Sequence record: NC_134264.1
Strand: one strand, 5' to 3'
Source of the DNA: Escherichia phage Lindwurm
Length of the DNA: 64,000 bases
A program made the translations under genes and the position numbers. Positions 18,893 through 33,094 of this stretch are shown piece by piece; position 1 is the stretch's first letter; each line of letters starts with the position of its first letter. The notes beneath the pieces are model-generated. The model did no database searches, was not told the DNA's origin, and was given only the letters and a program-made list of their open reading frames with translations.

Positions 18893-19063
18893 ATGAAATC
18901 AGTTGTAATTATTGGTGTTAACACTCGCGGTATTCGTACTACGAAAACTGTTAAAACTTCTAACGTTGCTGAAATCACTACGAACCCTAAAAAGTTTGAT
19001 TTCGCCAAAGTCTCAGCAGTTATGACAGAACAATCTTTTAACCAAGCGTTAGGAATGAAATAA
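18893..19063 (+). CDS. small hypothetical protein
   Basis: 56-aa ORF (below track cutoff) with GAGAGGAAG RBS; stop overlaps next start (TAATG). Confidence 0.4.
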   Translation: MKSVVIIGVNTRGIRTTKTVKTSNVAEITTNPKKFDFAKVSAVMTEQSFNQALGMK

Positions 19064-19617
19064 TGGAAGAGAATATTTTAGATGTTTTGCGTAGAGCTTT
19101 GCAGGATTCTAAGTTTAATGGTTCTGATAAAGAAGTCGCTAAAAGCTATCAGACCATAGTTGGGGATCTTCAGCGTATTGATAAAGACTTCATCACTTCA
19201 GAACAATTTGTGTCTTATCTCAAAGCTCAACTAAAAAGCATTAACCAGATGAAAGCTAAACTTCATGGTCAAGATCTTGATAGTTATAGCTTGCAGTCTG
19301 CTCAGTATGAATACATTCTAAATAAGTGGTTGCAGGAGTATCTGCCCCCTCAGTTGTCTGATACTGAGATTCGTAAATACTTTGCAGAATTAGTTAAGCT
19401 AAACCCCGGAATTACAAAGGGTATGCTGATGAAAGCGATTAAGGAAGAATTTCCTGGGCGTTATGATGGTGGTACTGCTGCTCAGATTGCTGGCGAATTT
19501 AACCAAGCAGATAGTTTAGTAAACTTAATAAAAGTTGCTAAACAGGATATTTCAGAAGGTAAATCATATACGCAAGAAGAAGCACTTGCTAAATTAAAGT
19601 CCGATAGATTAAACTAA
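19063..19617 (+). CDS. GatB/YqeY-domain protein
   Basis: EYLPPQLSDTEI and GMLMKAIKEEFPGRYDG resemble the YqeY C-terminal domain. Confidence 0.5.
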   Translation: MEENILDVLRRALQDSKFNGSDKEVAKSYQTIVGDLQRIDKDFITSEQFVSYLKAQLKSINQMKAKLHGQDLDSYSLQSAQYEYILNKWLQEYLPPQLSDTEIRKYFAELVKLNPGITKGMLMKAIKEEFPGRYDGGTAAQIAGEFNQADSLVNLIKVAKQDISEGKSYTQEEALAKLKSDRLN

Positions 19618-19625
19618 AAATTTAT

Positions 19626-19654
19626 TTGCTAAATGCCTTTAAATTCTGTATAAT
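19626..19654 (+). promoter_or_regulatory. T5-type early promoter driving ORF-free RNA region
   Basis: TTGCTA-17 bp-TATAAT; no ORF follows for ~0.8 kb. Confidence 0.6.
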
Positions 19655-20451
19655 ATATTCATAAATTAGAGAACAGCGAGCCGATTACGCTGAGTGCAGA
19701 ATCCCAACCGGAGCGCATTGAATAGAGTCGGTGGGTTAGTTGTAAAACTAGTACACAGGGGGCGGCAATCCCGGTTAGTGGCTAGAACGTGTAAAATGAG
19801 GCGTCTGAAACCTCTCCCCTAAACTCTTCTCTAATTTATAAATAGTGGGGTGTGGAAATCACTTATGTAGTAACACTGCCGTACTAGTATAATTGGTATT
19901 ATCAAGCCGTAACTGGTGGAAGATGTAGGTTCGAATCCTACGGTCGGTAAGAACTGGATAACTGGTGCTTTTAATGTAAAAGCTTCCGAGGTTAGTTGCG
20001 CACTGCCTAAACCACGCGGTAGTTGGTTCCAGACTAACCAACCAGTCTGCTGAATAGTTTTATTACGATTTAACTATGTCCAGGCTAAAGAAGAACTTTA
20101 GAAGGTATTCTAGGATAGTGAAGTTCTTTCTCCATATCGGAGTAGTTTTTCAAGCTATCCCCAAAGTGGGAAATGCTGACATGAGAGATGTCACTAATGG
20201 TGCACAATAGCACAGGTAATTCGCGATAACTCCTGTTGAGTAGCAGCAAAAGGCGGGAAGTCATGACCCCAAGCCTAACCGAGTCCTCAATATACCGCAG
20301 GACATAACCACTAAGTCACCCTGACTTAAACTGGAAAATAATAGACGTTACCGTATTTTGTCTTGAAATACTTAATGAGTGAGACTTATGACTCTCCCGG
20401 TATCGTCTGTATTTTTAAGAGTTTTTACAAGAGTTCTTAAAAATACTTAAA

Positions 20452-20525
20452 CGGGGTGTAGTCTAAGGGAGAGGCAGGAGTCTTCTAAATTCCTTTATGC
20501 AGGTTCGAATCCTGTCACCTCGGCC
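20452..20525 (+). tRNA. tRNA-Arg (anticodon TCT)
   Basis: 7-bp acceptor CGGGGTG/CACCTCG; T-arm GCAGG-TTCGAAT-CCTGT; loop cTTCTaa; CCA encoded. Confidence 0.75.
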
Positions 20526-20560
20526 AATTTTATTAACTGTAACTAAAACAAAGGAAACAT

Positions 20561-23523: not shown

Positions 23524-24042
23524 ATGAATGTTGATGAGCTAACACAGCACCTCTTATCTAGAGGATTTGATACAGATAAATATCATTGCTGGTTAAGTAC
23601 GGAAGGATGGCTAACAGTCCCGTTGTATGACTTCTCTGGGATGTTGAGGGGCTATCAAACTTATAATCCTTCTGCTCCAAAAGGTCATGGTAAGTGCCCC
23701 TTTGAAGCTAAATACTTTACTTATTCTACTACCCAGTGTGTATGGGGACTAGAAACTCTCAATGGAGATGAAAAAGTAGTATTGATTGCTGAATCTGTAT
23801 TTAAGGCAGTTGCGTTACATAACGCTGGTTATCCAGCCCTAGCAATGTTGGGTTCTTCTCCAGGAAAAGCGTTATTAAAGCAACTGAAATTACTACCTTT
23901 TAAATTGATAGCTGTCGGGGACAATGATCCTGCGGGTGAAAAATTTGCTAGAAAATTAAACGGCTTTGTTTCTCCTGTAGATGTAGATGAGATGTCTACC
24001 GAAAACTTGAAAAATTTTCTTGCTATGAAGCTAAATTTCTAA
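23524..24042 (+). CDS. TOPRIM-domain protein (DnaG-primase-like)
   Basis: VVLIAESVFKAVALHNAGYPALAMLGSS and LIAVGDNDPAGEKFARKL match TOPRIM E...DxD motifs. Confidence 0.5.
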   Translation: MNVDELTQHLLSRGFDTDKYHCWLSTEGWLTVPLYDFSGMLRGYQTYNPSAPKGHGKCPFEAKYFTYSTTQCVWGLETLNGDEKVVLIAESVFKAVALHNAGYPALAMLGSSPGKALLKQLKLLPFKLIAVGDNDPAGEKFARKLNGFVSPVDVDEMSTENLKNFLAMKLNF

Positions 24043-24048
24043 TATAAT
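24020..24048 (+). promoter_or_regulatory. T5-type promoter preceding tRNA genes
   Basis: TTGCTA-17 bp-TATAAT overlapping 3' end of preceding ORF. Confidence 0.55.
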
Positions 24049-24063
24049 ATATCTTATAAATTC

Positions 24064-24152
24064 GGAAGAATAGCATAACGGTATTGCAGCAGATTGCTAA
24101 TCTGTCGGTTTGAAATATAGCCTTGTGGGTTCGATTCCCACTTCTTCCGCCA
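24064..24152 (+). tRNA. tRNA-Ser (anticodon GCT)
   Basis: Acceptor GGAAGAA/TTCTTCC; T-arm GTGGG-TTCGATT-CCCAC; loop ttGCTaa; long variable arm; CCA. Confidence 0.8.
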
Positions 24153-24158
24153 GATTTT

Positions 24159-24236
24159 GGTTCTCAAGCTCATATGGTATGAGCACCCAGCTCATAACTG
24201 GAAGGTACGTAGGTTCGAATCCTCGGGGAGCCACCA
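24159..24236 (+). tRNA. tRNA-Met-like (anticodon CAT), imperfect T-stem
   Basis: Acceptor GGTTCTC/GGGAGCC; D-stem GCTC/GAGC; loop ctCATaa; T-stem has 2 mismatches; CCA. Confidence 0.5.
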
Positions 24237-24254
24237 ATTAAATAGAGGTCACAA

Positions 24255-24443
24255 ATGGATCTATATATAGTTTATGTTGTGTTTATTCAAGATAGAGAAT
24301 ACCCGGATGAATATAAAAAAGGATATAGGTTAGCCAGAGCTACCTCTGAAGCCCAAGCTATGGATAAAGTGGCAGATTATATGATTACGGTAGAAAACGT
24401 ACACTATATCGACTACCTTGAAGCCTCAAAAGTAATTGACTAA
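24255..24443 (+). CDS. hypothetical protein
   Basis: 62-aa ORF after tRNA pair. Confidence 0.4.
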   Translation: MDLYIVYVVFIQDREYPDEYKKGYRLARATSEAQAMDKVADYMITVENVHYIDYLEASKVID

Positions 24444-24452
24444 GGAGACTAT

Positions 24453-24638
24453 ATGTCCAAGTTTCAAGAACTCAAGCAAGAGCTAGAAGAGTGTGCCTGC
24501 CCTGAGTGTAGGGGAATTGGTGAAAGTTCTGATGCAGAAGCAGGAGATACTTTTTGCAATATCTGGGTTTGCCCAAATTGCAATGGTACAGGTATTAATC
24601 CTAACTGTGGTATTTCCCTAGATATTGAACGAGGATAA
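24453..24638 (+). CDS. small Cys-rich zinc-ribbon-like protein
   Basis: CACPEC...CNIWVCPNC pairs; AAGGAG RBS. Confidence 0.45.
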   Translation: MSKFQELKQELEECACPECRGIGESSDAEAGDTFCNIWVCPNCNGTGINPNCGISLDIERG

Positions 24639-24738
24639 TACCTGTGAAACTAAAAGATTACTATATTGGTTGGTTTGTGGGACTAGTAGTAGGATTTTCA
24701 CTAGGCTATAATATGTATCAACTAATAAACTGATTACA

Positions 24739-24815
24739 TGGGGGTGTAATCGAATTGGCATAGGTACTGGACTTAAAATTCAGGTTTTGTGGGTTCGAAT
24801 CCCACCACCCCTACC
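24739..24815 (+). tRNA. tRNA-like gene (anticodon TAA, weak D-arm)
   Basis: Acceptor GGGGGTG/CACCCCT; T-arm GTGGG-TTCGAAT-CCCAC; loop cTTAAaa; no clean D-stem; CCA. Confidence 0.5.
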
Positions 24816-24991
24816 AAATTAAGGAAATAAGATGTATAGACATCCACCTCCGCCAACACGTCGTTCTAGAGAAGTTATTCTCATGGAGTTGACTAAAAAC
24901 TTCAAGGCAACTCTTGAAGATAGAGATCTAGGCACGGATGAAGACATTGATTTTATTTGTAGACTATTAAAGATGAAACTGGAGAAACAAC

Positions 24992-25198
24992 ATGGCTAAT
25001 CCTGAAATTACCGCACAACGTTTCATGCTTAAAGGTATGATTGCTGAGGCGGGTTTAACTCAAGAGGTTGCAGATTTTCATAAGCAATTTCTTGATATTA
25101 TAACTCTAGCTAAAGAAACTGGAGAAAAAGAACATGGAGCGGCAATTATGGCTATATCTCTTATTAGTCTAGACTTGGCTGAAGAATCTGGAGTTTAG
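24992..25198 (+). CDS. hypothetical protein
   Basis: 68-aa ORF. Confidence 0.45.
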   Translation: MANPEITAQRFMLKGMIAEAGLTQEVADFHKQFLDIITLAKETGEKEHGAAIMAISLISLDLAEESGV

Positions 25199-25228
25199 AT
25201 CCTCCAAACAGAATTTTTAAAAATGTAC

Positions 25229-25258
25229 TTGCCTTTTGCTTTAAATTTCTGGTATAAT
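25229..25258 (+). promoter_or_regulatory. T5-type early promoter
   Basis: TTGCCT-18 bp-TATAAT. Confidence 0.55.
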
Positions 25259-25288
25259 AGTTATATAAATTGATGAAGGAGTTAACGA

Positions 25289-25564
25289 ATGCAAAATCGT
25301 GTTATAGCAGCTGGTATTGAAAGTGCAATCTGTAAATCCTGGGAAGGCTGGGAAGGTGAGATTGAATGGCTTTATTTCTACGATGTAGAGCTTCTGCCGG
25401 AAATTAAAGCTAAATGTGTTGAAGCTGGCATGTCTCCAGATGCAAGAGCTGATATTGATATTTCAATGTCTGAACTTAAAGGTCGTGTAATCACTGTTAG
25501 TGATGAGGGCGAAGAAGTTTTTGAACTTCCGTTCTCCTTAACTGTCACTCCTAAGTTCGACTAA
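25289..25564 (+). CDS. hypothetical protein
   Basis: 91-aa ORF with AAGGAG RBS. Confidence 0.45.
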   Translation: MQNRVIAAGIESAICKSWEGWEGEIEWLYFYDVELLPEIKAKCVEAGMSPDARADIDISMSELKGRVITVSDEGEEVFELPFSLTVTPKFD

Positions 25565-25600
25565 CTAATACAGCATTGGGCAAGTTCTTTAAAATTTGAC

Positions 25601-25629
25601 TTGCCCAATACTATAAAACTTGGTATAAT
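25601..25629 (+). promoter_or_regulatory. promoter preceding tRNA cluster
   Basis: TTGCCC-17 bp-TATAAT. Confidence 0.5.
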
Positions 25630-25762
25630 ATTTATCTAATTTGGAAAGTTCTTTTTAAGGTAGTTCTTACTTTAGCAGAGTAAATTTTTGGCAGATGGCC
25701 CCCACCATTTTACCGATAACTCCTAGTCAGTGCGGTAACACTGGCTACCTTAAAGAGAATTT

Positions 25763-25850
25763 GGGCGTTTATTCCGTAAGTGGTAGCGGAGGGGACTGTA
25801 AATCCCTGGTCATTGCGACTCGAGTGGTTCGACTCCATTAACGCCCACCA
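25763..25850 (+). tRNA. tRNA-Tyr (anticodon GTA)
   Basis: Acceptor GGGCGTT/AACGCCC; stem GGGGA/TCCCT; loop ctGTAaa; long variable arm; CCA. Confidence 0.8.
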
Positions 25851-25857
25851 ATTTAAT

Positions 25858-25932
25858 GCACCTATCGTCTAGCGGTTAGGACACCACTCTTTCACAGTGG
25901 GAACACGAGTTCGATCCTCGTTGGGTGTGCCA
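25858..25932 (+). tRNA. tRNA-Glu (anticodon TTC)
   Basis: T-arm ACGAG-TTCGATC-CTCGT; stem CCACT/AGTGG; loop ctTTCac; CCA. Confidence 0.8.
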
Positions 25933-25941
25933 ATTAATAAT

Positions 25942-26012
25942 TGGGGTACGCATAGGTTGCAAATGGGCCTCCAAAACCCATGAAAAGGTTTCGAATACCT
26001 TTACCCCTGCCA
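25942..26012 (+). tRNA. tRNA-Trp-like (anticodon CCA), compact
   Basis: T-arm AAGGT-TTCGAAT-ACCTT; loop ctCCAaa with C-A closing mismatch; 3-bp D-stem; CCA. Confidence 0.5.
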
Positions 26013-26018
26013 AAATTT

Positions 26019-26093
26019 GCACCTTTAGCTGAGATGGATTAGCGCTTGCCTGAAGAGCTTGAGAGGTTCGTTCGATTCGAACAGGGTGCACCA
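26019..26093 (+). tRNA. tRNA-Phe-like (anticodon GAA)
   Basis: Acceptor GCACCTT/AGGGTGC; D-stem GCTG/TAGC; T-arm GTTCG-TTCGATT-CGAAC; loop ctGAAga; two U-U in anticodon stem. Confidence 0.55.
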
Positions 26094-26110
26094 ATTTGAG
26101 GGAGCTGCTG

Positions 26111-26383
26111 ATGCATCCTGAAAACTTCTTTATTTACTGCGCTGATAAGTCGCTGAAACGTAGAATTAACAAAGTCTATCATTATCGTGCTAGTCAACAG
26201 CCTTATGTATATGCTTTTGATGATGATCACATTCCACTAGAACAATTATCTTGTGATTACATGATATTGAAGAACTTTGACGAGACAAAGATCTCAAGCG
26301 TTCATAATCGACAGAATCCATTAACGTGGAAATATAAGAAGAAAAAGAAAGGCATCAAATTTTTAAAAAATGTAGTTGCTTAG
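26111..26383 (+). CDS. hypothetical protein
   Basis: 90-aa ORF from ATG 26111 with GAGGGA RBS. Confidence 0.45.
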   Translation: MHPENFFIYCADKSLKRRINKVYHYRASQQPYVYAFDDDHIPLEQLSCDYMILKNFDETKISSVHNRQNPLTWKYKKKKKGIKFLKNVVA

Positions 26384-26404
26384 TTTCCAAAAGTTCTGTA
26401 TAAT
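26376..26404 (+). promoter_or_regulatory. T5-type promoter preceding tRNA genes
   Basis: TTGCTT-17 bp-TATAAT. Confidence 0.6.
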
Positions 26405-26452
26405 AATTACATAAATTGAACTGGAGAAGCAACATGATAGAATAAGATAAAT

Positions 26453-26528
26453 CGACCGTTGGCTGAATGGCTTAGGCGAAGGATTGCAAATCCTTTTTAT
26501 GTGAGTTCAAATCTCATGCGGTCGTCCA
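26453..26528 (+). tRNA. tRNA-Cys (anticodon GCA)
   Basis: Acceptor CGACCGT/GCGGTCG; stem AAGGA/TCCTT; loop ttGCAaa; T-arm GTGAG-TTCAAAT-CTCAT; CCA. Confidence 0.8.
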
Positions 26529-26536
26529 AATTTTTA

Positions 26537-26619
26537 GGGTCGTTAGCCAAGTGGTTTGGCGGCGGATTGTTAATCCGTGTCGAAAGACAACGTAGGTTCG
26601 AATCCTACACGGCCCGCCA
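26537..26619 (+). tRNA. tRNA-Asn (anticodon GTT) with 13-nt variable region
   Basis: Acceptor GGGTCGT/ACGGCCC; D-stem GCCA/TGGC; loop ttGTTaa; T-arm GTAGG-TTCGAAT-CCTAC; CCA. Confidence 0.6.
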
Positions 26620-26721
26620 AATTCTGTGTAGAGTTAAGTAAACCGGTAGCCAACCAGCTATCATTGCTGATATCGAATTCAGCCACAGATACCGTTTTCA
26701 TTAATAACTGAGGAAACAAGC

Positions 26722-26907
26722 ATGTCCAAGAATGTAATTGCGCAGCTAGAAGTTCATCGTGATAGCACTATCAACAATATTGAAGTTGAGAAGAAATACA
26801 TCGAAGAACTTAAACATGATATACTGGTAAGTCTCAACCGTCTTAACGTACGAAAAGAGTTTCTTAAGGAACTTAATGCAGCTATTGAAAAACTCAAAGC
26901 TGAGTAA
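26722..26907 (+). CDS. hypothetical protein
   Basis: 61-aa coiled-coil-like ORF with GAGGAAAC RBS. Confidence 0.45.
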   Translation: MSKNVIAQLEVHRDSTINNIEVEKKYIEELKHDILVSLNRLNVRKEFLKELNAAIEKLKAE

Positions 26908-26916
26908 ATGAATTAT

Positions 26917-26993
26917 GCGACCGGGGCTGGCTTGGTAATGGTACTCCCCTGTCACGGGAGGGAATGTGGGTTCAAATCCCATCGGTCGCGCCA
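26917..26993 (+). tRNA. tRNA-Asp (anticodon GTC)
   Basis: Acceptor GCGACCG/CGGTCGC; stem CTCCC/GGGAG; loop ctGTCac; T-arm GTGGG-TTCAAAT-CCCAT; CCA. Confidence 0.8.
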
Positions 26994-27019
26994 AACTAAA
27001 CTAGCACGAGAAATATGCT

Positions 27020-27367
27020 ATGATTAATGCTAAAGAAGAATTGTTACTTGCCCTAAAGAATACTAATTCTGAAGTTAAGTGTATTAAGATAGAATTCGGT
27101 TATTATGGTGACAAAGAAGTTTGGGTATTGCCCGTAGGTTATACAGAAAAAGATATTGAAGATTTTCTAAATAATCTAGACTTTAAATATGATTCTGGTT
27201 ATGGTGGGCAATTGCTTTATGGTAACGTGTGGTTTACTGATGGAACTTGGTTAGAACGTGGTGAATACGACGGTTCTGAGTGGTGGGAATATAAGGCTAC
27301 GCCAGCAATCCCAGAAGAATGCCGAACAATTAATGGTGAAGTAGATCGTACTTTACTATTAAATTAA
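27020..27367 (+). CDS. hypothetical protein
   Basis: 115-aa ORF. Confidence 0.5.
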   Translation: MINAKEELLLALKNTNSEVKCIKIEFGYYGDKEVWVLPVGYTEKDIEDFLNNLDFKYDSGYGGQLLYGNVWFTDGTWLERGEYDGSEWWEYKATPAIPEECRTINGEVDRTLLLN

Positions 27368-27489
27368 CAAAATTTCAGTGCAGAACACGGAGCTAGCAAT
27401 TCGGAAGTGCTGACTCATGATAAGCTGCCTATGTACTTGCGAAGCGGTCGTGTCCAAGACTCGGACTCTTGCACTGAAAACAATCAAAC

Positions 27490-27610
27490 ATTCTAGCGTG
27501 GTTGATGGGGAAACCAGCTTGGCGAGGGCAGAAGCTCGTTCGATTCGAGTGAAAGAATGGTTCTCGTAAGTCCGCACAAGTGATAACAGGTTCGAGTCCT
27601 GTCTAGAATG
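27490..27610 (+). ncRNA. oversized tRNA-like element (~121 nt)
   Basis: Perfect 7-bp acceptor ATTCTAG/CTAGAAT and T-arm ACAGG-TTCGAGT-CCTGT enclosing ~95 nt with an inner T-arm-like hairpin. Confidence 0.4.
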
Positions 27611-27769
27611 ACACTATAAAGTTTACTTATTATGTAGGTTCCGGTAGACCGGCGGGTCTATTCTGGCATTTAAGAGAGGTCTCGCAAGCCTCTTTGTCAG
27701 CAGTGGGGTTGGTAGCCTCCAGGTGGCCTACACAATAAGTAAATTTATTAAAAATTCATTTGCTATTCT

Positions 27770-27798
27770 GCTTAATTCTCTGTATAATATATCTTATA
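27770..27798 (+). promoter_or_regulatory. T5-type early promoter
   Basis: TTGCTA-17 bp-TATAAT. Confidence 0.6.
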
Positions 27799-27820
27799 AA
27801 GTGAAGAGAAGGAAAGCTAA

Positions 27821-28018
27821 ATGAAGAAAGTTTTATTACTATCCGTATTCCTACTTACTGGTTGTTTTAAATTTGACTCAACCATTAATAAAGAGTATGA
27901 ATTTGCTAAAAATTTCTGTGGCGGAGAGAGTAATATAAAGAATTTCTACATATATAGTACGATTCCTAGTACCGTTTATTGTGTAGACGGACGAATTATT
28001 AATATTCCTCCACAATAA
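27821..28018 (+). CDS. small lipoprotein
   Basis: MKKVLLLSVFLLTGC signal peptide with lipobox LTGC. Confidence 0.5.
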   Translation: MKKVLLLSVFLLTGCFKFDSTINKEYEFAKNFCGGESNIKNFYIYSTIPSTVYCVDGRIINIPPQ

Positions 28019-28027
28019 AAGAATTAA

Positions 28028-28103
28028 CAGTGCGTAGCGCAGTTGGTAGCGTGGGAGCCTTGGATGCTTCGGGTCGCAGGTTCGAGTCCTGCCGCACTGA
28101 CCA
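28028..28103 (+). tRNA. tRNA-Pro (anticodon TGG)
   Basis: Acceptor CAGTGCG/CGCACTG; T-arm GCAGG-TTCGAGT-CCTGC; loop ctTGGat; CCA. Confidence 0.8.
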
Positions 28104-28109
28104 AACAAT

Positions 28110-28187
28110 TGCGGGTTAGATCTCTGGTAGAGATCACTAGTCTCATAAGCTAGAAAGAGGTAGGTTCGATTCCTGCACCCGCTTCCA
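28110..28187 (+). tRNA. tRNA-Met/Ile2 (anticodon CAT)
   Basis: Stem CTAGT/GCTAG; loop ctCATaa; T-arm GTAGG-TTCGATT-CCTGC; first acceptor pair mismatched; CCA. Confidence 0.65.
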
Positions 28188-28207
28188 TTTTAATAGAGGA
28201 TTTCGAA

Positions 28208-28375
28208 ATGAAAGTATTTCGATTAGTAGTAAGTGACAAACGTTCAGGTAAGAATACATCAAAATCCTTACTTGCTCATTACGGTAAAAATTGGGATGAA
28301 GTAATGGTAGAGTTTAGTACTAATCACCCTTACTTAAAAGTCCACTCTATTAAAGAAGTGTATAATGGTTACTAA
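28208..28375 (+). CDS. small hypothetical protein
   Basis: 55-aa ORF between tRNAs, hand-translated, AGAGGA RBS. Confidence 0.4.
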   Translation: MKVFRLVVSDKRSGKNTSKSLLAHYGKNWDEVMVEFSTNHPYLKVHSIKEVYNGY

Positions 28376-28376
28376 T

Positions 28377-28455
28377 AGATCGCTAGCTCAATAGGTTTAG
28401 TAGCATCCGACTTTTAATCGGAAGGTTCTGGGTTCGAGTCCCAGGCGATCTACCA
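28377..28455 (+). tRNA. tRNA-Lys (anticodon TTT)
   Basis: Acceptor AGATCGC/GCGATCT; stem TCCGA/TCGGA; loop ctTTTaa; T-arm CTGGG-TTCGAGT-CCCAG; CCA. Confidence 0.8.
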
Positions 28456-28473
28456 ATTTCAAGAAAAATGCAG

Positions 28474-28502
28474 TTGCTTAATGCTTAATTTCTTGTTATA
28501 AT
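28474..28502 (+). promoter_or_regulatory. T5-type promoter driving ORF-free segment and tRNAs
   Basis: TTGCTT-17 bp-TATAAT. Confidence 0.6.
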
Positions 28503-28834
28503 ATTTATATAAATTGATGCGAAAATAGCTGCCTAGATATCAGGTGTATGACGTCTACACTAGCAGAGCTACCGAAAAAGAGATCCTCAGGATAAACGTC
28601 GTAGCAAAATTAGTCTGATATCCATCAATTTAGTTCACTAAGGTATTAGCTTGACCTAGGACTGGCTGCCAAAAAGCACGATCCCTACGATTCGGGAGAA
28701 GTTCTAGATTAGTCCACTAGATTCAGCGGCAACTGAATAGTGTATCGGGTTTGCGAGATGACGCGGTTCCTTCCGCTCGAAGCGAAGGTGCTGTAGTTAC
28801 GCCGAGCTAATAGCCTTAGTAAACTAAAGAATTT

Positions 28835-28908
28835 GGGGATATAGTTTAATGGTAGAACATCTGCTTTGCACGCAGAAGACGAGGGTTCAACTCCCTCTTT
28901 CTCCACCA
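28835..28908 (+). tRNA. tRNA-Ala (anticodon TGC)
   Basis: Stem TCTGC/GCAGA; loop ttTGCac; T-arm GAGGG-TTCAACT-CCCTC; one acceptor mismatch; CCA. Confidence 0.7.
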
Positions 28909-28913
28909 AATTT

Positions 28914-28998
28914 GGGGCTATGCTGGAACTGGTAGACAATACGGCCTTAGATTCCGTAGCTTAAATGCGTGGGAGTTCGAGTCTCCCTAGCCCCACCA
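28914..28998 (+). tRNA. tRNA-Leu (anticodon TAG)
   Basis: Acceptor GGGGCTA/TAGCCCC; loop ctTAGat; long variable arm; T-arm GGGAG-TTCGAGT-CTCCC; CCA. Confidence 0.75.
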
Positions 28999-29014
28999 AC
29001 TTATAGGGTAATGT

Positions 29015-29599
29015 ATGCAGTTTGTACCAATAAAAGATGCACCAGGGTATTTAGTAAATGAAACAGGGGATGTGTTATCTACATTTACTAATAAAATTTT
29101 ATCAAGATATATAGTTGATGGATACCCTGCTGTAAAATTACAGATAAATGGTAAGCAAACTTCGGTACTTATACACCGAATTATTTCTCATGTATTTGGG
29201 GACTTATATAATCTATTTGACCCTGAATTAGAAGTAGATCACAAGGATAGAGATAGGCTGAATCTATCTAAAGATAATCTTCAAGTTTTGTCAAAAATAG
29301 AACATCAGAAGAAAACTAATAAAGATAATGGATGGTCTGATAGTAGAGTACCTTGCCCCTTATGTGGAAATCTAATGCTTCAGAGATCAGTAACATGTAC
29401 AAATTGTAAGCCAAAACCTACAGGAAAGTTAATAAAACCAGAATTGTCCTTAGAAGACATAACTGAAAAGGTTTTATTAATGGGGTGGGTTAAGGCAGCT
29501 AAAGATCTAGAAGTATCAGAGTCCACTTTACGTAGACGATATACTAAACTAACCGGATTAAGCCCAAAAGTATTAACAGAACAACGGAAAAGCAAATAG
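29015..29599 (+). CDS. HNH homing endonuclease
   Basis: IKDAPGYLVNETGDV N-terminal motif; VDHKDRDRLNLSKDNLQVL...EH HNH core; C-terminal HTH-like segment. Confidence 0.7.
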   Translation: MQFVPIKDAPGYLVNETGDVLSTFTNKILSRYIVDGYPAVKLQINGKQTSVLIHRIISHVFGDLYNLFDPELEVDHKDRDRLNLSKDNLQVLSKIEHQKKTNKDNGWSDSRVPCPLCGNLMLQRSVTCTNCKPKPTGKLIKPELSLEDITEKVLLMGWVKAAKDLEVSESTLRRRYTKLTGLSPKVLTEQRKSK

Positions 29600-29679
29600 A
29601 CTGGTGACTAAACCCGATTGGAAATCGGTTGAGTGGTAGCAATACCGCCTTATGGGTTCAACTCCCATCTTTTCCGCCA
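29586..29679 (+). tRNA. tRNA-Ser (anticodon GGA)
   Basis: Acceptor GGAAAAG/CTTTTCC; stem CCGA/TCGG; loop ttGGAaa; long variable arm; T-arm ATGGG-TTCAACT-CCCAT; CCA. Confidence 0.7.
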
Positions 29680-29691
29680 AACAATTTATAC

Positions 29692-29786
29692 GGTAGGTCA
29701 ATCCAACGGCTGGCGCTGGACTCCGACTTGAAATCGGTTGATCGTAGTGATACGGTGTAAGGGTTCGATCCCCTTACCTACCTCCA
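29692..29786 (+). tRNA. tRNA-Ser (anticodon TGA)
   Basis: Acceptor GGTAGGT/ACCTACC; loop ctTGAaa; long variable arm; T-arm AAGGG-TTCGATC-CCCTT; CCA. Confidence 0.75.
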
Positions 29787-29791
29787 AATCT

Positions 29792-29923
29792 TGAAGTATG
29801 CCGGAATCGGTAGACGGGGCTGCCTAAAAGGTTTATAGAGAACATCCACTCTCTACAACATACCTCATAAAGCGGCTGAGATAAATGGTCTATCTCGTGA
29901 AGGTTCAAGTCCTTCTGCTTCTT
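29792..29923 (+). ncRNA. oversized tRNA-like element (~132 nt)
   Basis: Perfect T-arm GAAGG-TTCAAGT-CCTTC and 6/7-bp acceptor enclosing hairpins AGAG..CTCT and GAGATA..TATCTC; no CCA. Confidence 0.35.
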
Positions 29924-30152
29924 GATACACCTATGGCTCAAAGTGTAACGGTGCTATTTGATACTCTTAGTAAGACTTTCCCGACATGCGTTCGGGAGTA
30001 AGCTGCTAAGGCTAGAGTAGAAGAGTTTCGGAGAGCCGCCACAATTGAAAATTCGTACTCGTCTTGAGCTGCGTGCAATAGGAGATAACTTGATTAGTAT
30101 TCTAGAACATGCTAATTGAGGAAGGTTTCGCTAACCCTGCGAGTTTTCAATT

Positions 30153-30229
30153 GTGGCTATATCATAATTGGTTAATGATCCTGATTGTGAATCAGGCCTA
30201 TGTGGATTCGAATTCCACTAGCCACCCCA
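30153..30229 (+). tRNA. tRNA-His (anticodon GTG)
   Basis: Acceptor GTGGCTA/TAGCCAC; D-stem TCAT/ATGA; stem CCTGA/TCAGG; loop ttGTGaa; CCA. Confidence 0.8.
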
Positions 30230-30287
30230 AATTAACTTAAATAGGGAATAAAATATAGCTGATTTCTGCAAACAATGCTCCGTTGAT

Positions 30288-30452
30288 ATGTGGGGTAGAG
30301 ATACTGGTGATCTTTCTGGTTTGATTACAGAAGCTGAGGTCAAAGAAGGTTATGGTGCAGTTGTGATTTGCGAAGGATGCGGAGTTATTCGAGTAGATCA
30401 TGAAGGCAAACGTTTAGAAGAACAGGAAAACTTAGGAGAAACAAATGAGTAA
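30288..30452 (+). CDS. small hypothetical protein
   Basis: 54-aa hand-translated ORF; no clear RBS. Confidence 0.3.
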   Translation: MWGRDTGDLSGLITEAEVKEGYGAVVICEGCGVIRVDHEGKRLEEQENLGETNE

Positions 30453-30681
30453 TGCTTTAATTAGTGAAATTATGTTAACACGTCTTGCAGAACTGCAAAC
30501 TCTTCGAGATGAATCTCAGAATAACTTAGCGTACCATAAACAAATGGTAGATACTCTTACTACTCGTATTGATACTTACGAGCGTGATATTGCAGCATTA
30601 CAAGCTCTATTCTCTGTACCAGCACCAGATACGTTAGAACAGCCTGCTGTTTCTCAGCCAGTAGAAACAGCATCTAGTTAA
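30445..30681 (+). CDS. hypothetical protein
   Basis: 78-aa ORF with GGAGAAAC RBS. Confidence 0.45.
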   Translation: MSNALISEIMLTRLAELQTLRDESQNNLAYHKQMVDTLTTRIDTYERDIAALQALFSVPAPDTLEQPAVSQPVETASS

Positions 30682-30690
30682 TAGCATTCT

Positions 30691-30766
30691 TGGGATGTAG
30701 ATCAATTGGCAGATCGTCGGCCTCTGACTCCGAAGGTTCCACGTTCGATCCGTGGCATCCCAGCCA
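30691..30766 (+). tRNA. tRNA-Gln (anticodon CTG)
   Basis: Acceptor TGGGATG/CATCCCA; D-stem GATC/GATC; loop ctCTGac; T-arm CCACG-TTCGATC-CGTGG; CCA. Confidence 0.7.
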
Positions 30767-30772
30767 AACAAT

Positions 30773-30848
30773 TGGAGAGTAGTGTAACGGTTAGCACAAC
30801 GGCCTTTGACTCCGTTAATGGTAGGTTCGATTCCTCCTTCTCCAGCCA
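30773..30848 (+). tRNA. tRNA-Gln (anticodon TTG)
   Basis: Acceptor TGGAGAG/TTCTCCA; loop ctTTGac; T-loop TTCGATT; CCA. Confidence 0.7.
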
Positions 30849-30856
30849 AGTAATAA

Positions 30857-30932
30857 GCGGTTAAGCACACGGGTTGTGTCGCAGGCCTTCCAAGCCTAGC
30901 TGAGTAGGGTTCGATTCCCTCTAGCCGCTCCA
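30857..30932 (+). tRNA. tRNA-Gly (anticodon TCC)
   Basis: Acceptor GCGGTTA/TAGCCGC; stem AGGC/GCCT; loop ctTCCaa; T-loop TTCGATT; CCA. Confidence 0.65.
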
Positions 30933-30948
30933 ACTTTAAGGAAACATT

Positions 30949-31200
30949 ATGCACGTTTTTGAGTTTCGTAATAAAAGTACCGATAAACGAGTTATTGTTA
31001 TTGGAGAAACATACCGAGCATACGAACAAACTGACGGATCTGTTATACTGAATGATGAGAAAGGGGGTTTTAGCTTTTATCCAGAAGAACCTTATGAAGA
31101 GTTTCGAAAACAATTTAACCTAGACTGGAGAAAGCATTTAAACACTGTTGCTTCATCTGTAGTATTGCCAACTACCAGTACTGTGCTCTCTAATGGCTGA
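30949..31200 (+). CDS. hypothetical protein
   Basis: 83-aa ORF with AAGGAAAC RBS. Confidence 0.45.
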   Translation: MHVFEFRNKSTDKRVIVIGETYRAYEQTDGSVILNDEKGGFSFYPEEPYEEFRKQFNLDWRKHLNTVASSVVLPTTSTVLSNG

Positions 31201-31357
31201 TAACCTAAAAGTCAAGATCGATAAACAAAAGAAACGTGTAGAAGTAGAGATTGGTGAAGAACGTGTAGCCTTCACCTTTGAATTTCTACAACAAATGGCA
31301 ATGACAGTTATGACTGATAAGTCTCCTGTTATTGAAAAAGAAATCCCGTTGAAATAA
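31193..31357 (+). CDS. small hypothetical protein
   Basis: 54-aa hand-translated ORF, start overlapping stop of preceding gene. Confidence 0.35.
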   Translation: MADNLKVKIDKQKKRVEVEIGEERVAFTFEFLQQMAMTVMTDKSPVIEKEIPLK

Positions 31358-31365
31358 CGGGTTCT

Positions 31366-31452
31366 GCTGGGTTGGCAGAATGGTTGAATGCACCTGATTT
31401 GTAATCAGGAGGAGTAATCCCACTGCAGGTTCGAATCCTGTGCCCAGCACCA
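31366..31452 (+). tRNA. tRNA-Thr (anticodon TGT) with ~15-nt variable region
   Basis: Acceptor GCTGGGT/GCCCAGC; stem CCTGA/TCAGG; loop ttTGTaa; T-arm GCAGG-TTCGAAT-CCTGT; CCA. Confidence 0.6.
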
Positions 31453-31466
31453 ATTTAAGGACTAGT

Positions 31467-31634
31467 ATGTTTAAACTACTAGTAGTTATCTGGTATAGTC
31501 AATCAAACAGAGCTAATACCTCCCACGTTATAGACTTTAATACTAAAAACGAAGCTGAAAAAGCATACGCTAATTTAATAGAACGTAATAAAGAATCTCG
31601 TAGTATAGTTTATGAAGTGACTAAACTCTATTAA
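31467..31634 (+). CDS. small hypothetical protein
   Basis: 55-aa ORF from ATG 31467 with AAGGA RBS. Confidence 0.35.
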   Translation: MFKLLVVIWYSQSNRANTSHVIDFNTKNEAEKAYANLIERNKESRSIVYEVTKLY

Positions 31635-31642
31635 AAATTCAT

Positions 31643-31671
31643 TTGCTTTCTCTCTTATTTCTTGTTATAAT
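31643..31671 (+). promoter_or_regulatory. T5-type early promoter
   Basis: TTGCTT-17 bp-TATAAT. Confidence 0.65.
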
Positions 31672-31701
31672 ATTTATATAAATTAATGAGAGGGAAACCA
31701 A

Positions 31702-31995
31702 ATGAAACGTTATCTTTCTGTTGTGTTCCAAACTGGTGGTCAACGCTATACCTATGAATTTCCTAGCTCTTGGAAGATCAAAGAAGGTGATCAAGTAGTA
31801 GTGTTAACACCGCGTGAGGGTTTCAAGGTAGTAACGGTTAAGCAAGTATTTCCAAAAGAGCATGAACCAGCTAAAGGCATTCGCTATAAGATGATTCATG
31901 GTGTAGTTCGTCAAGTACCACGAGCGGAAGTCGAAATCAAAGTAGATAAAGATGGTAAACTTAAATATACCTCTTGCTTAGACGAGTTGCTATAA
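31702..31995 (+). CDS. hypothetical protein
   Basis: 97-aa ORF with GAGAGGGAAAC RBS. Confidence 0.5.
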   Translation: MKRYLSVVFQTGGQRYTYEFPSSWKIKEGDQVVVLTPREGFKVVTVKQVFPKEHEPAKGIRYKMIHGVVRQVPRAEVEIKVDKDGKLKYTSCLDELL

Positions 31996-32201
31996 TGAGG
32001 ATTACTTTCACAGAAAAGATCATGAGTAATGGTGTTATGATCATTACCGCATGGGATGGTAGTCAGTGGTGTAGTGTTTCAGGTATTAAGCCTGAAAAAC
32101 AAACACTAGAAAATATCTCAAAGATTAAGCGAATAATGGCAGAACGTGCACGACTTCCAGGTGCGCCTAGAAATGGCAAACGTTCTGCTGTAAAATGTTA
32201 A
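31995..32201 (+). CDS. hypothetical protein
   Basis: 68-aa ORF; ATG overlaps preceding stop (TAATG). Confidence 0.45.
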   Translation: MRITFTEKIMSNGVMIITAWDGSQWCSVSGIKPEKQTLENISKIKRIMAERARLPGAPRNGKRSAVKC

Positions 32202-32202
32202 T

Positions 32203-32279
32203 ACTTCGGTAGCTTAGCGATCTAAAGCACTCGGCTGATAACCGAGAGATCGGGGGTTTAAATCCCTCCCGGAGTACCA
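32203..32279 (+). tRNA. tRNA-Ile (anticodon GAT)
   Basis: Acceptor ACTTCGG/CCGGAGT; stem CTCGG/CCGAG; loop ctGATaa; T-arm GGGGG-TTTAAAT-CCCTC; CCA. Confidence 0.8.
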
Positions 32280-32375
32280 AATTTAGGAATTAAGACTATG
32301 CGTCCAGGAAAGTTTAAAAAAGCTAATTGGACTAAAGAGTATAAAGAATACTTACTTAGTCTAGTAAAACATAAT

Positions 32376-32451
32376 AGTTAGTTGGCAGAGCGGTTATGCA
32401 CCTCCTTCATACGGAGCGATTACAGTGGTTCAAATCCACTACTAACTACCA
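32376..32451 (+). tRNA. tRNA-Met (anticodon CAT)
   Basis: Acceptor AGTTAGT/ACTAACT; loop ttCATac; T-arm AGTGG-TTCAAAT-CCACT; CCA. Confidence 0.75.
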
Positions 32452-32488
32452 TTAAAATAGCTAGAGATAGCTAAATTTAGGAGCAGCT

Positions 32489-32683
32489 ATGTTAACAATT
32501 AAAATAATGTCAGCCAAGAATGGGGAACAGATTCATACAGGCAAAAGTGTAAGCTTTAATCCTAGAAATAAAAGATTGGCTATAGTTGGAGTAGACCAAG
32601 CCATCTTTTTAAAAGAAGATGAAGTAGCATATGTCATGAACCAAACTGGTAAGACAGTTTCCGTATACTATGGAAAAGTATAA
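32489..32683 (+). CDS. hypothetical protein
   Basis: 64-aa ORF with AGGAG RBS. Confidence 0.45.
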   Translation: MLTIKIMSAKNGEQIHTGKSVSFNPRNKRLAIVGVDQAIFLKEDEVAYVMNQTGKTVSVYYGKV

Positions 32684-32725
32684 AGAATAAAAAGCTGAGC
32701 CAAATTCTAACATCGGGGAGATCTA

Positions 32726-33094
32726 ATGAAAGCATATCAAAATCTTAAATCTGGCGTAATTAACCTTGTTCATGAAAATCAGATTATTCAGCTATACTCC
32801 GACAACGGTGAACTTAAACAGAAAGTTCTAGTTGAAGATCTAGAAGGTATCACACCGCAATTCGATCCTGAATCCTTCCGTGAAGTTAAGGTGGAAGTCG
32901 TCCCTCAAATCGAAGGTGGTCAGCACCTAAATGTCAATGTGTTAAGCCGTGATCAGCTTTTGGATGCGCAGAAACATCCTGAAAAATATCCTCAGTTGAC
33001 CATCCGTGTCTCTGGCTACGCTGTTCGATTTAATGCACTGACTCGTGAACAACAGAACGACGTTATTAGTCGTACATTTACTCAGGCAATGTAA
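32726..33094 (+). CDS. autonomous glycyl-radical cofactor (GrcA/YfiD-like)
   Basis: [11 protein letters not shown] and [27 protein letters not shown] match the GrcA glycyl-radical domain. Confidence 0.75.

What the first reader, a model, noticed from the sequence alone, without database searches (positions are those of the whole stretch)
19626..20451. 0.8 kb ORF-free, promoter-driven segment with T-arm and pseudoknot-like repeats
A strong T5-type promoter (19626-19654) is followed by ~800 nt with no credible ORF before tRNA-Arg. The stretch contains a perfect T-arm (GTAGG-TTCGAAT-CCTAC, 19925-19941) without a matching anticodon arm, and interleaved complementary segments GTTGGTT...CCAGACT...AACCAAC...CAGTCTG (20021-20050). 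These are candidates for phage small RNAs or processed tRNA-like fragments.
Basis: seen in the sequence. Interest (0 to 1): 0.5.

Follow-up and report, generated by a model that had tools for sequence, protein, structure and literature searches.

The report
Large structured phage RNA (T5 RNAX)
This promoter-driven, gene-free 0.8 kb stretch is this T5-like phage's copy of "RNAX", a long folded non-coding RNA with a built-in tRNA look-alike that is conserved across the T5 phage family. It is annotated in T5 as a stable RNA, but its function is unknown.

Summary
The promoter, the absence of a conserved ORF, the perfect T-arm and the interleaved repeats are all present at the stated coordinates.

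The window is a Tequintavirus. The segment is the homologue of T5 "rnaX" (misc_RNA, "stable RNA with unknown functions"), which lies between promoter P16-17 and tRNA-Arg(UCU).

Comparison of about 40 distinct versions from three Demerecviridae lineages shows a chain of helix-closed RNA domains with many compensatory base changes:
- a 5' pseudoknot domain, replaced by a plain hairpin in T5;
- a core holding a tRNA look-alike, with acceptor, D and T arms kept but no 7-nt anticodon loop;
- a hairpin array;
- a highly conserved 3' domain ending in a 17-bp hairpin.

Every ORF in the window is broken in relatives. Rfam matches only tRNA.

The best reading is a stable, multi-domain structural RNA matured by tRNA-processing enzymes. 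Its action as a tRNA-mimic decoy or scaffold is inferred, not shown.

The locus is already annotated in T5, so this is a new member of a known but uncharacterised kind. In location and layout it resembles GOLLD and ROOL. Interest is moderate.

The parts
19626..19654 (+). Sigma-70 early promoter (-35 TTGCTA, 17-nt spacer, -10 TATAAT). The transcription start is inferred at about A19661.
   Evidence: 10/12 match. 95% identical to T5 'promoter P 16-17'. The start site is inferred from T5 early-promoter architecture (own knowledge).
19661..20451 (+). RNAX-homologous non-coding transcript, from the inferred start to the base before tRNA-Arg.
   Evidence: Window 19822-20451 (query 168-797) matches T5 rnaX at 92.5% identity and DT57C rnaX at 95.2%. 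No conserved ORF. No Rfam family other than tRNA.
19663..19837 (+). 5' domain A, closed by helix P1 (AAATTAGAGAA 19663-73 with TTCTCTAATTT 19827-37). It contains hairpin P2 (CAGCG 19674-78 with CGCTG 19688-92). The P2 loop GCCGATT (19680-86) pairs with AGTCGGT (19726-32), giving an H-type pseudoknot. It also contains hairpin GAGG/CCTC (19798-801 with 19811-14).
   Evidence: P1 shows compensatory variants (T5 AGAGA/TCTCT, Kenya-K44 AGTGA/TCACT, AKFV33-type AGATG/CATCT). In My1, P2 becomes CAGCA/TGCTG and the loop pairing becomes GCAGACT/AATCTGT. T5 and DT57C have only the P1 hairpin.
19845..20015 (+). Core domain, closed by GTGG (19845-48) with CCAC (20012-15). It encloses the tRNA mimic and two hairpins: Hp1 at 19967-83 and Hp2 at 19991-20007.
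   Evidence: 88.5% of cells paired against 31-44% when partners are slid. 11 pairs change on both sides. YZU-L1 has ATGG/CCAT. Hp1 occurs as GCTTTT/AAAAGC, GCTTC/GAAGC, GCTTAT/ATAAGC and GGTTC/GAACC. Model R1 finds it in T5 (211 bits) and My1 (84 bits).
19878..19949 (+). Non-decoding tRNA look-alike. Acceptor stem 19878-84 with 19942-48, D arm 19887-19902, 3-bp stem with 6-nt loop at 19906-17, T arm 19925-41, U at position -1, A at the discriminator position, no encoded CCA.
   Evidence: Rfam tRNA scores: 29.9 bits here, 38.3 in T5, 35.1 in Klebsiella phages, 33.0 in S147. Acceptor covariation (T5 GCCGACC/GGTCGGT, DT57C GCCGATC/GATCGGT, L158 GCCGTCC/GGACGGT, My1 GCCCTCT/AGTGGGA) and T-stem covariation. 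The window copy has two acceptor mismatches.
20022..20049 (+). It consists of a conserved hairpin (GTTGGTT 20022-28 with AACCAAC 20036-42) and a clade-specific alternative stem (CAGACT 20030-35 with AGTCTG 20044-49).
   Evidence: the hairpin is kept through wobble pairs and one compensatory change. The second stem has only 3-4 of 6 pairs, or is absent, in R2, 26175V, CitS1 and YZU-L1.
20051..20160 (+). Middle array of hairpins (ATAGTT/AACTAT, CTAAAG/CTTTAG, TAGAA/TTCTA, GGATAG...CTATCC enclosing CTCC/GGAG).
   Evidence: Read from the sequence and the fold. Positions 20087-20159 are 84% identical in Klebsiella phages. This module is replaced by another in S147/R2-type phages. Not tested formally.
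20165..20326 (+). Conserved 3' domain D. Helices: H1 GTGG 20166-69 with CCAC 20308-11; H2 20177-82 with 20188-93; H4 20212-16 with 20232-36; H5 20251-57 with 20268-76, whose loop AAGTCATGAC (20258-67) is almost invariant (positions 20259-67 identical in all 20 lineages of A2); H6 20283-87 with 20299-303; H7 AGTCA-CCC-TGACT 20314-26.
   Evidence: Alignments A2 and A3; 97.8% of cells paired against 35-47% when slid. 9 pairs change on both sides (0 of 500 shuffles reach this). Fixed G-U pairs place the RNA on the + strand.
20327..20450 (+). 3' sub-domain. It holds the invariant AAACTGGAA.ATA, a type-specific multi-helix region with a long-range helix (GACGTTACCG 20344-53 with CGGTATCGTC 20398-407), and a terminal 17-bp hairpin at 20409-46.
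   Evidence: The long-range helix is re-created with different sequence in the three types (GCAGTAG/CTACTGGC; GACGGAAGG/CCTACCGTC). The terminal hairpin is also conserved in Pectobacterium phages My1 and DU_PP_V.
20452..20526 (+). tRNA-Arg(UCU) with encoded CCA. RNase P cleavage at its 5' end would define the 3' end of RNAX.
   Evidence: ARAGORN. Rfam 49.3 bits. The RNase P step is inferred from general tRNA maturation.

Best explanation
The segment encodes the window phage's version of T5 RNAX. This is a roughly 790-nt non-coding, highly structured RNA made from a strong early host-type promoter on the same transcript as tRNA-Arg(UCU).

It is built from independently closed domains:
- a 5' pseudoknot domain that pairs the very 5' end of the transcript into an 11-bp helix;
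- a core domain carrying a tRNA look-alike that keeps the acceptor stem, the D/T-loop elbow and a U at -1, but has no usable anticodon loop;
- a hairpin array;
- a strongly conserved 3' domain that ends in a 17-bp hairpin.

Inferred maturation: RNase P cuts at tRNA-Arg and so releases the RNAX 3' end. It probably also cuts at the tRNA look-alike. The helices at both ends protect the product, which would explain why T5's annotators call it a stable RNA.

Inferred action (the weakest step, about 0.3 on its own): it works as a structural RNA, not as a messenger or an antisense regulator. It would present a tRNA-shaped handle and conserved single-stranded motifs to tRNA-binding proteins, as a decoy or scaffold during host takeover or against tRNA-directed defences.
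For: Homology and position match T5 and DT57C rnaX.

The promoter is homologous to T5 P16-17.

All ORFs are broken in relatives.

Covariation supports the core (11 pairs with changes on both sides, 3 of 500 shuffles reach this; 88.5% paired against 31-44% when slid). It also supports the 3' domain (9 such pairs, 0 of 500 shuffles; 97.8% against 35-47%).

Fixed G-U pairs put the RNA on the promoter strand.

Compensatory changes occur in P1, P2 and the loop pairing of the 5' domain.

The same layout is found in Klebsiella Sugarlandvirus and in Pectobacterium phage My1, which belongs to another subfamily. The structure model scores My1 at 84 bits, E=9e-17.

The tRNA look-alike reaches the Rfam tRNA threshold in five lineages. 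Its anticodon position is a 3-bp/6-nt hairpin, an extended arm, or a 6-bp stem with a 3-nt loop.
Against: - No expression or stability data could be found. Literature searches for RNAX returned nothing, so 'stable RNA' rests on a GenBank note.
- The folding-energy z-score is weak and similar on both strands (-2.0 and -1.7).
- The tRNA look-alike is not universal. S116-type phages replace it with a roughly 45-nt stem-loop in the same socket. The window's own copy has two acceptor-stem mismatches.
- The 5' domain is dispensable, since it is absent from T5 and DT57C.
- The sequences are closely related, so the shuffle controls overstate significance.
- No partner protein is identified. The neighbouring YqeY-like ORF scores below Pfam's cut-off (24.9 against 27 bits) and is not adjacent in Klebsiella phages or My1.
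Confidence: 0.6

Rival explanations
1. It is a polycistronic precursor of several independent small RNAs. Host RNases (RNase P at the tRNA mimic and at tRNA-Arg, RNase E or III elsewhere) would cut out each helix-closed domain, and the pieces would act separately, for example by base-pairing with host or phage mRNAs.
For: Each domain is closed by its own helix and is gained, lost or swapped independently between phages. T5's tRNA region is annotated with seven other short stable RNAs of about 70-170 nt. The tRNA mimic has a U at -1 and a conserved acceptor/T arm, which would suit RNase P.
Against: T5 and DT57C annotate one RNA of 719 and 636 nt, not pieces. The invariant motifs are short and mostly engaged in intramolecular helices. 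No target complementarity was identified.
Confidence: 0.15
2. It is an RNA-only multimeric assembly of the GOLLD/ROOL type. Copies of the RNA would associate through loop-loop contacts into a large particle.
For: Like GOLLD and ROOL it is a large structured RNA of unknown function encoded in phages next to a tRNA island. [quoted passage not shown] The H5 loop contains the self-complementary GUCAUGAC, identical in all 20 lineages of A2.
Against: No Rfam match to GOLLD or ROOL at E<=10. In My1 the palindrome is broken (GUCAUGCC), and that loop instead complements the neighbouring H7 region, which suggests an intramolecular contact. There are no physical data.
Confidence: 0.12
3. It is merely a long leader of the tRNA-Arg precursor, made of decayed tRNA genes and filler, with no function of its own beyond carrying the promoter.
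For: T5-like tRNA regions are mosaic and full of insertions (homing-endonuclease ORFs). The tRNA look-alike could be a decayed tRNA. The window copy has acceptor mismatches. Parts are dispensable in some phages.
Against: Invariant motifs and compensatory changes persist across three Demerecviridae lineages whose flanking sequence is otherwise too diverged for BLAST to detect. In Epseptimavirus, Klebsiella phages and My1, protein genes separate the element from tRNA-Arg, so it is not just a tRNA leader.
Confidence: 0.07
4. The conserved blocks are DNA-level sites, such as operator-like palindromes (AGTCATGACC, AGTCA-N3-TGACT) or homing-endonuclease and recombination targets, rather than RNA structure.
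For: Several invariant motifs are palindromic at the DNA level. T5 has an 83-nt insertion flanked by a direct repeat of the 22-nt H7 motif. The same 22-mer occurs in an unrelated viral contig, L185. Homing-endonuclease genes sit inside the locus in some phages.
Against: G-U pairs are fixed on one strand only, and the many compensatory changes preserve pairing rather than sequence. The tRNA-like cloverleaf only makes sense as RNA.
Confidence: 0.04
5. It encodes one or more small proteins, namely the 42-60 aa ORFs that some GenBank records annotate as hypothetical proteins.
For: Some records call CDSs here.
Against: Every ORF of 25 aa or more is interrupted by stops or frameshifting indels, or is missing, in close relatives. 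The calls differ from record to record.
Confidence: 0.02

Closest known systems
Bacteriophage T5 rnaX (RNAX; T5s08, NC_005859.1 40848-41566) and its DT57C counterpart, annotated 'stable RNA with unknown functions'
   Same: Direct homologue: 92.5-95.2% identity over window 19822-20451. It has the same promoter (P16-17), the same position between the YqeY-like gene and tRNA-Arg(UCU), and the same core, middle and 3' domains.
   Different: The window RNA carries a roughly 150-nt pseudoknot domain inside the 5' hairpin that T5 and DT57C lack. T5 has an extra 83-nt insertion in the 3' domain. The window's tRNA look-alike has a weaker acceptor stem.
GOLLD and ROOL large ornate RNAs
   Same: These are large (about 0.6-0.8 kb and more) structured RNAs of unknown function, encoded in phages and prophages next to tRNA islands. 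GOLLD has a conserved 3' half and a variable 5' half (PMC12286853). RNAX shares the setting, the size and that 3'/5' asymmetry.
   Different: There is no sequence or structure match (Rfam). RNAX has an embedded cloverleaf. Multimerisation is untested, and the candidate kissing palindrome is not kept in My1.
Other T5 stable RNAs (RNA1, RNA2 and RNA3 'tRNA-like'; RNAI, RNAIII, RNAIV, RNA2H), and the phage T4 stable RNAs co-transcribed with tRNAs (the T4 case is from my own knowledge)
   Same: They are non-coding RNAs of unknown function inside phage tRNA clusters. Some have tRNA-like features, and they are presumably matured by tRNA-processing enzymes.
   Different: Those are about 70-170 nt, whereas RNAX is 4-10 times longer and multi-domain. 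The core model R1 found no paralogue of the RNAX core elsewhere in the window or in the T5 tRNA region, only ordinary tRNAs at 29 bits or less.
tRNA mimics that are not decoders: bacterial YrlA (Y RNA-like), viral 3' tRNA-like structures, mascRNA (own knowledge)
   Same: All keep the acceptor and T-arm elbow shape that tRNA-binding enzymes recognise, but replace the anticodon arm.
   Different: There is no Rfam match to YrlA. Here the mimic has normal tRNA topology and sits in the middle of a long RNA. No Rsr/Ro partner is known in these phages.

Membership tests
T5 RNAX (rnaX) locus | Sequence homology to the annotated T5/DT57C rnaX | tested here: met
   92.5% identity to T5 and 95.2% to DT57C over query 168-797. 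The core model scores 209 bits in the window and 211 bits in T5.
T5 RNAX (rnaX) locus | Position: downstream of promoter P16-17 and the YqeY-like gene, immediately upstream of tRNA-Arg(UCU) | tested here: met
T5 RNAX (rnaX) locus | Non-coding | tested here: met
   All ORFs are broken or absent in relatives.
T5 RNAX (rnaX) locus | Accumulates as a stable RNA in infected cells | not testable with these tools
   Only the GenBank note says so. No paper was found.
Functional tRNA (RF00005) | Cloverleaf reaching the Rfam gathering score | tested here: met
   29.9 bits against a gathering score of 29, which is marginal. Relatives score 29.3-38.3 bits.
Functional tRNA (RF00005) | 5-bp anticodon stem with a 7-nt loop presenting an anticodon | tested here: not met
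   The element has a 3-bp stem with the 6-nt loop GTAACT. Other lineages have a 6-nt loop, a long extended arm, or a 6-bp stem with a 3-nt loop. ARAGORN makes no call in the window.
Functional tRNA (RF00005) | Fully paired 7-bp acceptor stem | tested here: not met
   The window has GCCGTAC/GGTCGGT with two mismatches. It is fully paired in T5, DT57C and L158.
GOLLD / ROOL | Match to the Rfam covariance models | tested here: not met
   No hit at E<=10 in the window region, and none at E<=1 in five relatives.
GOLLD / ROOL | Large structured RNA encoded in a phage next to a tRNA island | tested here: met
   About 790 nt with covariation-supported structure, at the edge of a 21-tRNA region. The definition is from PMC12286853.
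GOLLD / ROOL | Homo-oligomeric RNA-only cage | not testable with these tools
   There is only a self-complementary loop, which is not kept in My1.
   Stem 1 is kept and covaries. Stem 2 is lost in four of eight sequence variants.
YrlA / bacterial Y RNA | Match to the Rfam model | tested here: not met
   No hit. Rsr binding is not testable.

The most novel reading that the evidence does not exclude
RNAX may be a new, Demerecviridae-wide class of large ornate RNA, functionally parallel to GOLLD and ROOL. Its conserved 3' domain and tRNA-shaped module would form a particle or RNP that captures tRNA-recognising factors, for example tRNA-cleaving defence nucleases or host tRNA-processing enzymes, and so protects phage translation. 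If so, T5 with E. coli would be the first genetically easy system for working out what such phage RNAs do.
Probability: 0.15. Interest if true: 0.85.

Novelty: new member of a known kind. Interest (0 to 1): 0.55.

Why it matters
T5 is a classic model phage. Its tRNA region has recently proved to be an arsenal against tRNA-directed immunity: T5 tRNA-Lys defeats PARIS (PMC11464382), and other defences cut tRNA acceptor stems or D-loops (PMC12916289).

The largest RNA of that region has no known role, is absent from Rfam, and is missed or mis-annotated in most genomes as 'hypothetical protein', 'tRNA-OTHER', 'tRNA-Sec' or 'tRNA-Pro'.

Showing that it is a conserved multi-domain structured RNA with a non-decoding tRNA mimic gives three things:
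- a corrected annotation for more than 500 phage genomes;
- a defined structure model to test;
- a tractable relative, in setting and layout, of the enigmatic GOLLD and ROOL RNAs.

Tried and rejected
- **Rfam scans.** A permissive scan of the region and of five homologous loci found only tRNA. Sub-threshold hits (SpF41, Hrs13, MIR477, SAM_alpha) were rejected as chance.
- **Metagenome scan.** The pattern GGTTCGANTCCNNCGGTCGG was too general. It hit ordinary tRNAs, and only 3 of 120 loci were relevant.
- **RNAalifold on the full-diversity 3'-domain alignment.** It recovered only the invariant helices, because the variable helices are misaligned by MAFFT. I used a narrower alignment with a hand-written structure instead.
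- **Folding-energy z-score.** It was not discriminating.
- **Leader-trailer helix around the tRNA mimic.** Not supported by the SP76 or S147 variants. A small hairpin at 19852-62 is only partly supported (83.8% of cells paired).
- **Local hairpin GTGC/GCAC at 20200-13.** It conflicts with helix H4, and the data do not decide between them.
- **H7 motif (TTGACT...) as a promoter.** Rejected because the spacing to any -10-like hexamer is about 10-11 nt.
- **Kissing-dimer idea for the GUCAUGAC loop.** Weakened by My1.
- **YqeY-like neighbour as an obligate partner.** Weakened: it scores below Pfam's cut-off and is not adjacent in Klebsiella phages or My1.
- **Literature searches.** Searches for RNAX and for T5 transcriptomes found no data on this RNA.

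Full report
**Identity of the window and the locus.** The window carries 21 tRNA genes. The 961 bases around the finding are 96-99% identical to many Salmonella and Escherichia Tequintavirus genomes. In the reference T5 record the homologous stretch is annotated as misc_RNA rnaX, 'RNAX, stable RNA with unknown functions' (719 nt). It lies between 'promoter P 16-17' and tRNA-Arg, and DT57C carries the same annotation. T5's tRNA region is annotated with seven further stable RNAs of unknown function, of which RNAX is by far the longest. Other records leave the stretch empty or call short 'hypothetical proteins', 'tRNA-OTHER', 'tRNA-Sec', 'tRNA-Ser' or 'tRNA-Pro'.

**Check of the observation.**
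- The promoter TTGCTA-17-TATAAT is at 19626-19654 (10/12). The generic scan is not above chance for the region, but the site is 95% identical to T5 P16-17 and about 80-85% identical to other annotated T5 promoters.
- The largest ORFs are 42-60 aa. Each is interrupted or missing in relatives.
- The perfect T-arm is at 19925-19941. It belongs to a cloverleaf-like element at 19878-19949 that just reaches Rfam's tRNA threshold (29.9 bits against 29), and ARAGORN does not call it.
- The interleaved repeats are at 20022-20049.

**Comparative anatomy.** I collected the locus from about 55 genomes or contigs, giving about 35-40 distinct sequences. They cover Tequintavirus, Epseptimavirus, Klebsiella Sugarlandvirus and Pectobacterium phage My1 of the subfamily Mccorquodalevirinae. 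The region is a mosaic. Conserved islands are separated by segments that differ between lineages, and each segment is closed by its own helix.

**(i) 5' domain, 19663-19837.**
- The first nucleotides of the transcript (AAATTAGAGAA) pair with TTCTCTAATTT.
- Inside, hairpin P2 (CAGCG/CGCTG) presents a loop, GCCGATT, that pairs with AGTCGGT about 30-60 nt downstream. This is an H-type pseudoknot with a variable hairpin in its long loop.
- My1 has CAGCA/TGCTG and GCAGACT/AATCTGT, which are compensatory in both helices.
- T5, Kenya-K44 and AKFV33-type phages have only the closing hairpin, with compensatory variants.
- Klebsiella phages and some Epseptimaviruses add a further helix-closed domain of about 175 nt.

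**(ii) Core domain, 19845-20015.** It is closed by GTGG/CCAC (ATGG/CCAT in YZU-L1). It contains an invariant leader (ACTTATGT..AACACT), the tRNA look-alike, an invariant trailer (AAGA..GATAACT) and two hairpins. On 35 distinct sequences:
- 88.5% of cells pair, against 31-44% when the partners are slid;
- 11 pairs change on both sides (3 of 500 shuffles reach this);
- the covariation score exceeds all shuffles.

The acceptor, D and T stems all covary. The position of the anticodon arm holds one of three things: a 3-4 bp stem with a 6-nt loop, an arm extended by 14-15 nt (Klebsiella phages and Kenya-K44, GGGG/CCCC against GGAGA/TCTCC), or in My1 a 6-bp stem with a 3-nt loop. It is therefore a tRNA-shaped module that cannot decode. 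A covariance model of the core finds T5 (211 bits), My1 (84 bits, E=9e-17) and S116-type phages (84 bits). Elsewhere in the window it finds only ordinary tRNAs at 29 bits or less.

**(iii) Middle hairpin array, 20016-20160.** It also has a second stem, CAGACT/AGTCTG, that exists only in the T5/window clade. With single-nucleotide connecting loops, a true pseudoknot also looks sterically unlikely (my inference). The two stems are better read as alternatives.

**(iv) 3' domain, 20165-20450.** This is the most conserved part and is present in all lineages, including the Klebsiella phages.
- Invariant motifs are AGTGGGAAA, G.AGTCATGACC, CCGA, ATAACCAC, AGTCA-CCY-TGACT, AAACTGGAA.ATA and GCTTAAT.
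- Between these motifs lie helices whose sequences differ but whose pairing is kept.
- On 12 sequences, 97.8% of cells pair (35-47% when slid), and 9 pairs change on both sides (0 of 500 shuffles).
- The last sub-domain is re-created with three unrelated sequence types that keep the same long-range helix.
- It ends in a 17-bp hairpin that is also recognisable in My1 and DU_PP_V.
- G-U pairs fixed in all sequences place the RNA on the promoter strand.

**What is shown and what is inferred.**

Shown:
- homology to annotated rnaX;
- absence of conserved coding capacity;
- evolutionary conservation of RNA secondary structure on the + strand across at least three Demerecviridae lineages;
- a non-decoding tRNA-like module;
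- no match to any Rfam family other than tRNA.

Inferred:
- transcription starts at about 19661, from T5 early-promoter architecture;
- RNase P cleaves at tRNA-Arg, and probably at the tRNA mimic, which has a U at -1, a conserved elbow and an A discriminator;
- the 5' and 3' terminal helices stabilise the RNA;
- any function.

I commit to a structural RNA that engages tRNA-binding proteins as a decoy or scaffold. The conserved features are shape and short unpaired motifs rather than long antisense stretches. The setting is a tRNA island whose products are known to counter tRNA-directed immunity (PMC11464382; PMC12916289). This step is weak.

**Caveats.**
- The tRNA mimic is replaced by an unrelated stem-loop of about 45 nt in S116-type phages.
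- The 5' domain is absent from T5.
- The window's own mimic has two acceptor mismatches.
- The folding-energy z-score is unremarkable.
- No expression data were found.

**Comparison with known systems.** The locus is a member of the T5 RNAX family. Homology, synteny and non-coding nature were tested and met. Stability is not testable here. It is not a functional tRNA, because the anticodon loop and the acceptor stem fail. It is not a GOLLD, ROOL or YrlA member by Rfam. It does share the defining setting of GOLLD and ROOL: a large structured phage RNA beside a tRNA island. It also shares GOLLD's conserved 3' and variable 5' layout (PMC12286853). A self-complementary loop (GUCAUGAC), identical in all 20 aligned lineages, hints at loop-loop contacts. 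In My1 that loop instead complements the neighbouring hairpin region, which favours an intramolecular contact.

**Verdict.** This is a real feature. The locus is already annotated in T5 as an uncharacterised stable RNA, so this is a new member of a known but unexplained kind. The added value here is:
- the domain model;
- the covariation evidence;
- the family-wide distribution;
- the demotion of the proposed pseudoknot.

Noticed in passing
L164:1935-1985 (Salmonella phage S116); also L183 and L171: In S116-type Epseptimaviruses the tRNA look-alike is replaced by an unrelated stem-loop of about 45 nt (GCCAGA...TCTGG enclosing GCTCA/TGAGC). The invariant leader and trailer are kept. The module sits in a conserved 'socket' and is exchangeable.
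   Followed up: partly
L006:702-1199 and 1787-2296; L173:816-1298; L176:1-399; L165:1317-1799: Some Epseptimaviruses carry a roughly 480-500-nt HNH homing-endonuclease ORF between the promoter and the core domain, in place of the 5' domain. They also carry a 510-nt ORF of unknown function between the terminal hairpin and tRNA-Arg. Klebsiella phages and My1 also have ORFs at the second position.
   Followed up: partly
L003 (T5) about 2490-2600; alignment A2 columns 302-420: T5 alone has an 83-nt insertion in the 3' domain. It is flanked by a direct repeat of the 22-nt motif AGTCACCTTGAC(T/A)TAAACTGGAA and contains its own inverted repeat. It looks like a duplication or a small inserted element.
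   Followed up: no
L185:11187-11208 (IMG/VR contig 3300028534_000003, 97 kb): The exact 22-mer AGTCACCTTGACTTAAACTGGA occurs in an apparently unrelated AT-rich viral contig, just after a coding region and without the rest of RNAX. Within the window the motif is unique, with 0 expected by chance. It may be a self-standing signal.
   Followed up: partly
L184:2200-3300, minus strand (IMG/VR contig 3300026533_000003, 102 kb): A long GC-rich apparently non-coding stretch contains a tRNA-shaped sequence with encoded CCA whose middle carries an insertion of about 100 nt. Next to it lie a separate perfect T-arm and the AGTCACCTTGACT..AAACTGGA motif. This may be a very distant relative of the RNAX family. 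The core model gave only 15 bits there.
   Followed up: partly
window 19063-19617: The upstream ORF, annotated elsewhere as 'tRNA amidotransferase', 'GatB domain' or 'recombination related exonuclease', matches Pfam YqeY only partially and below the curated cut-off (24.9 against 27 bits). The names in GenBank are inconsistent.
   Followed up: partly
window 24000-33000: T5's tRNA region is annotated with seven other stable or tRNA-like RNAs (RNAI, RNAIII, RNAIV, RNA1, RNA2, RNA2H, RNA3). Their homologues are probably present among the window's tRNA genes but were not examined.
   Followed up: no
window 19908-19918 and 19958-19968: TAACTGGTG occurs twice, once in the loop region of the tRNA look-alike's anticodon-position arm and once in the invariant trailer. 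The repeat is not kept in S147-type phages.
   Followed up: no
literature (PMC10644984): Phage BF23 is reported to lack a tRNA-Arg gene. Whether it also lacks or rearranges the rnaX locus was not checked.
   Followed up: no
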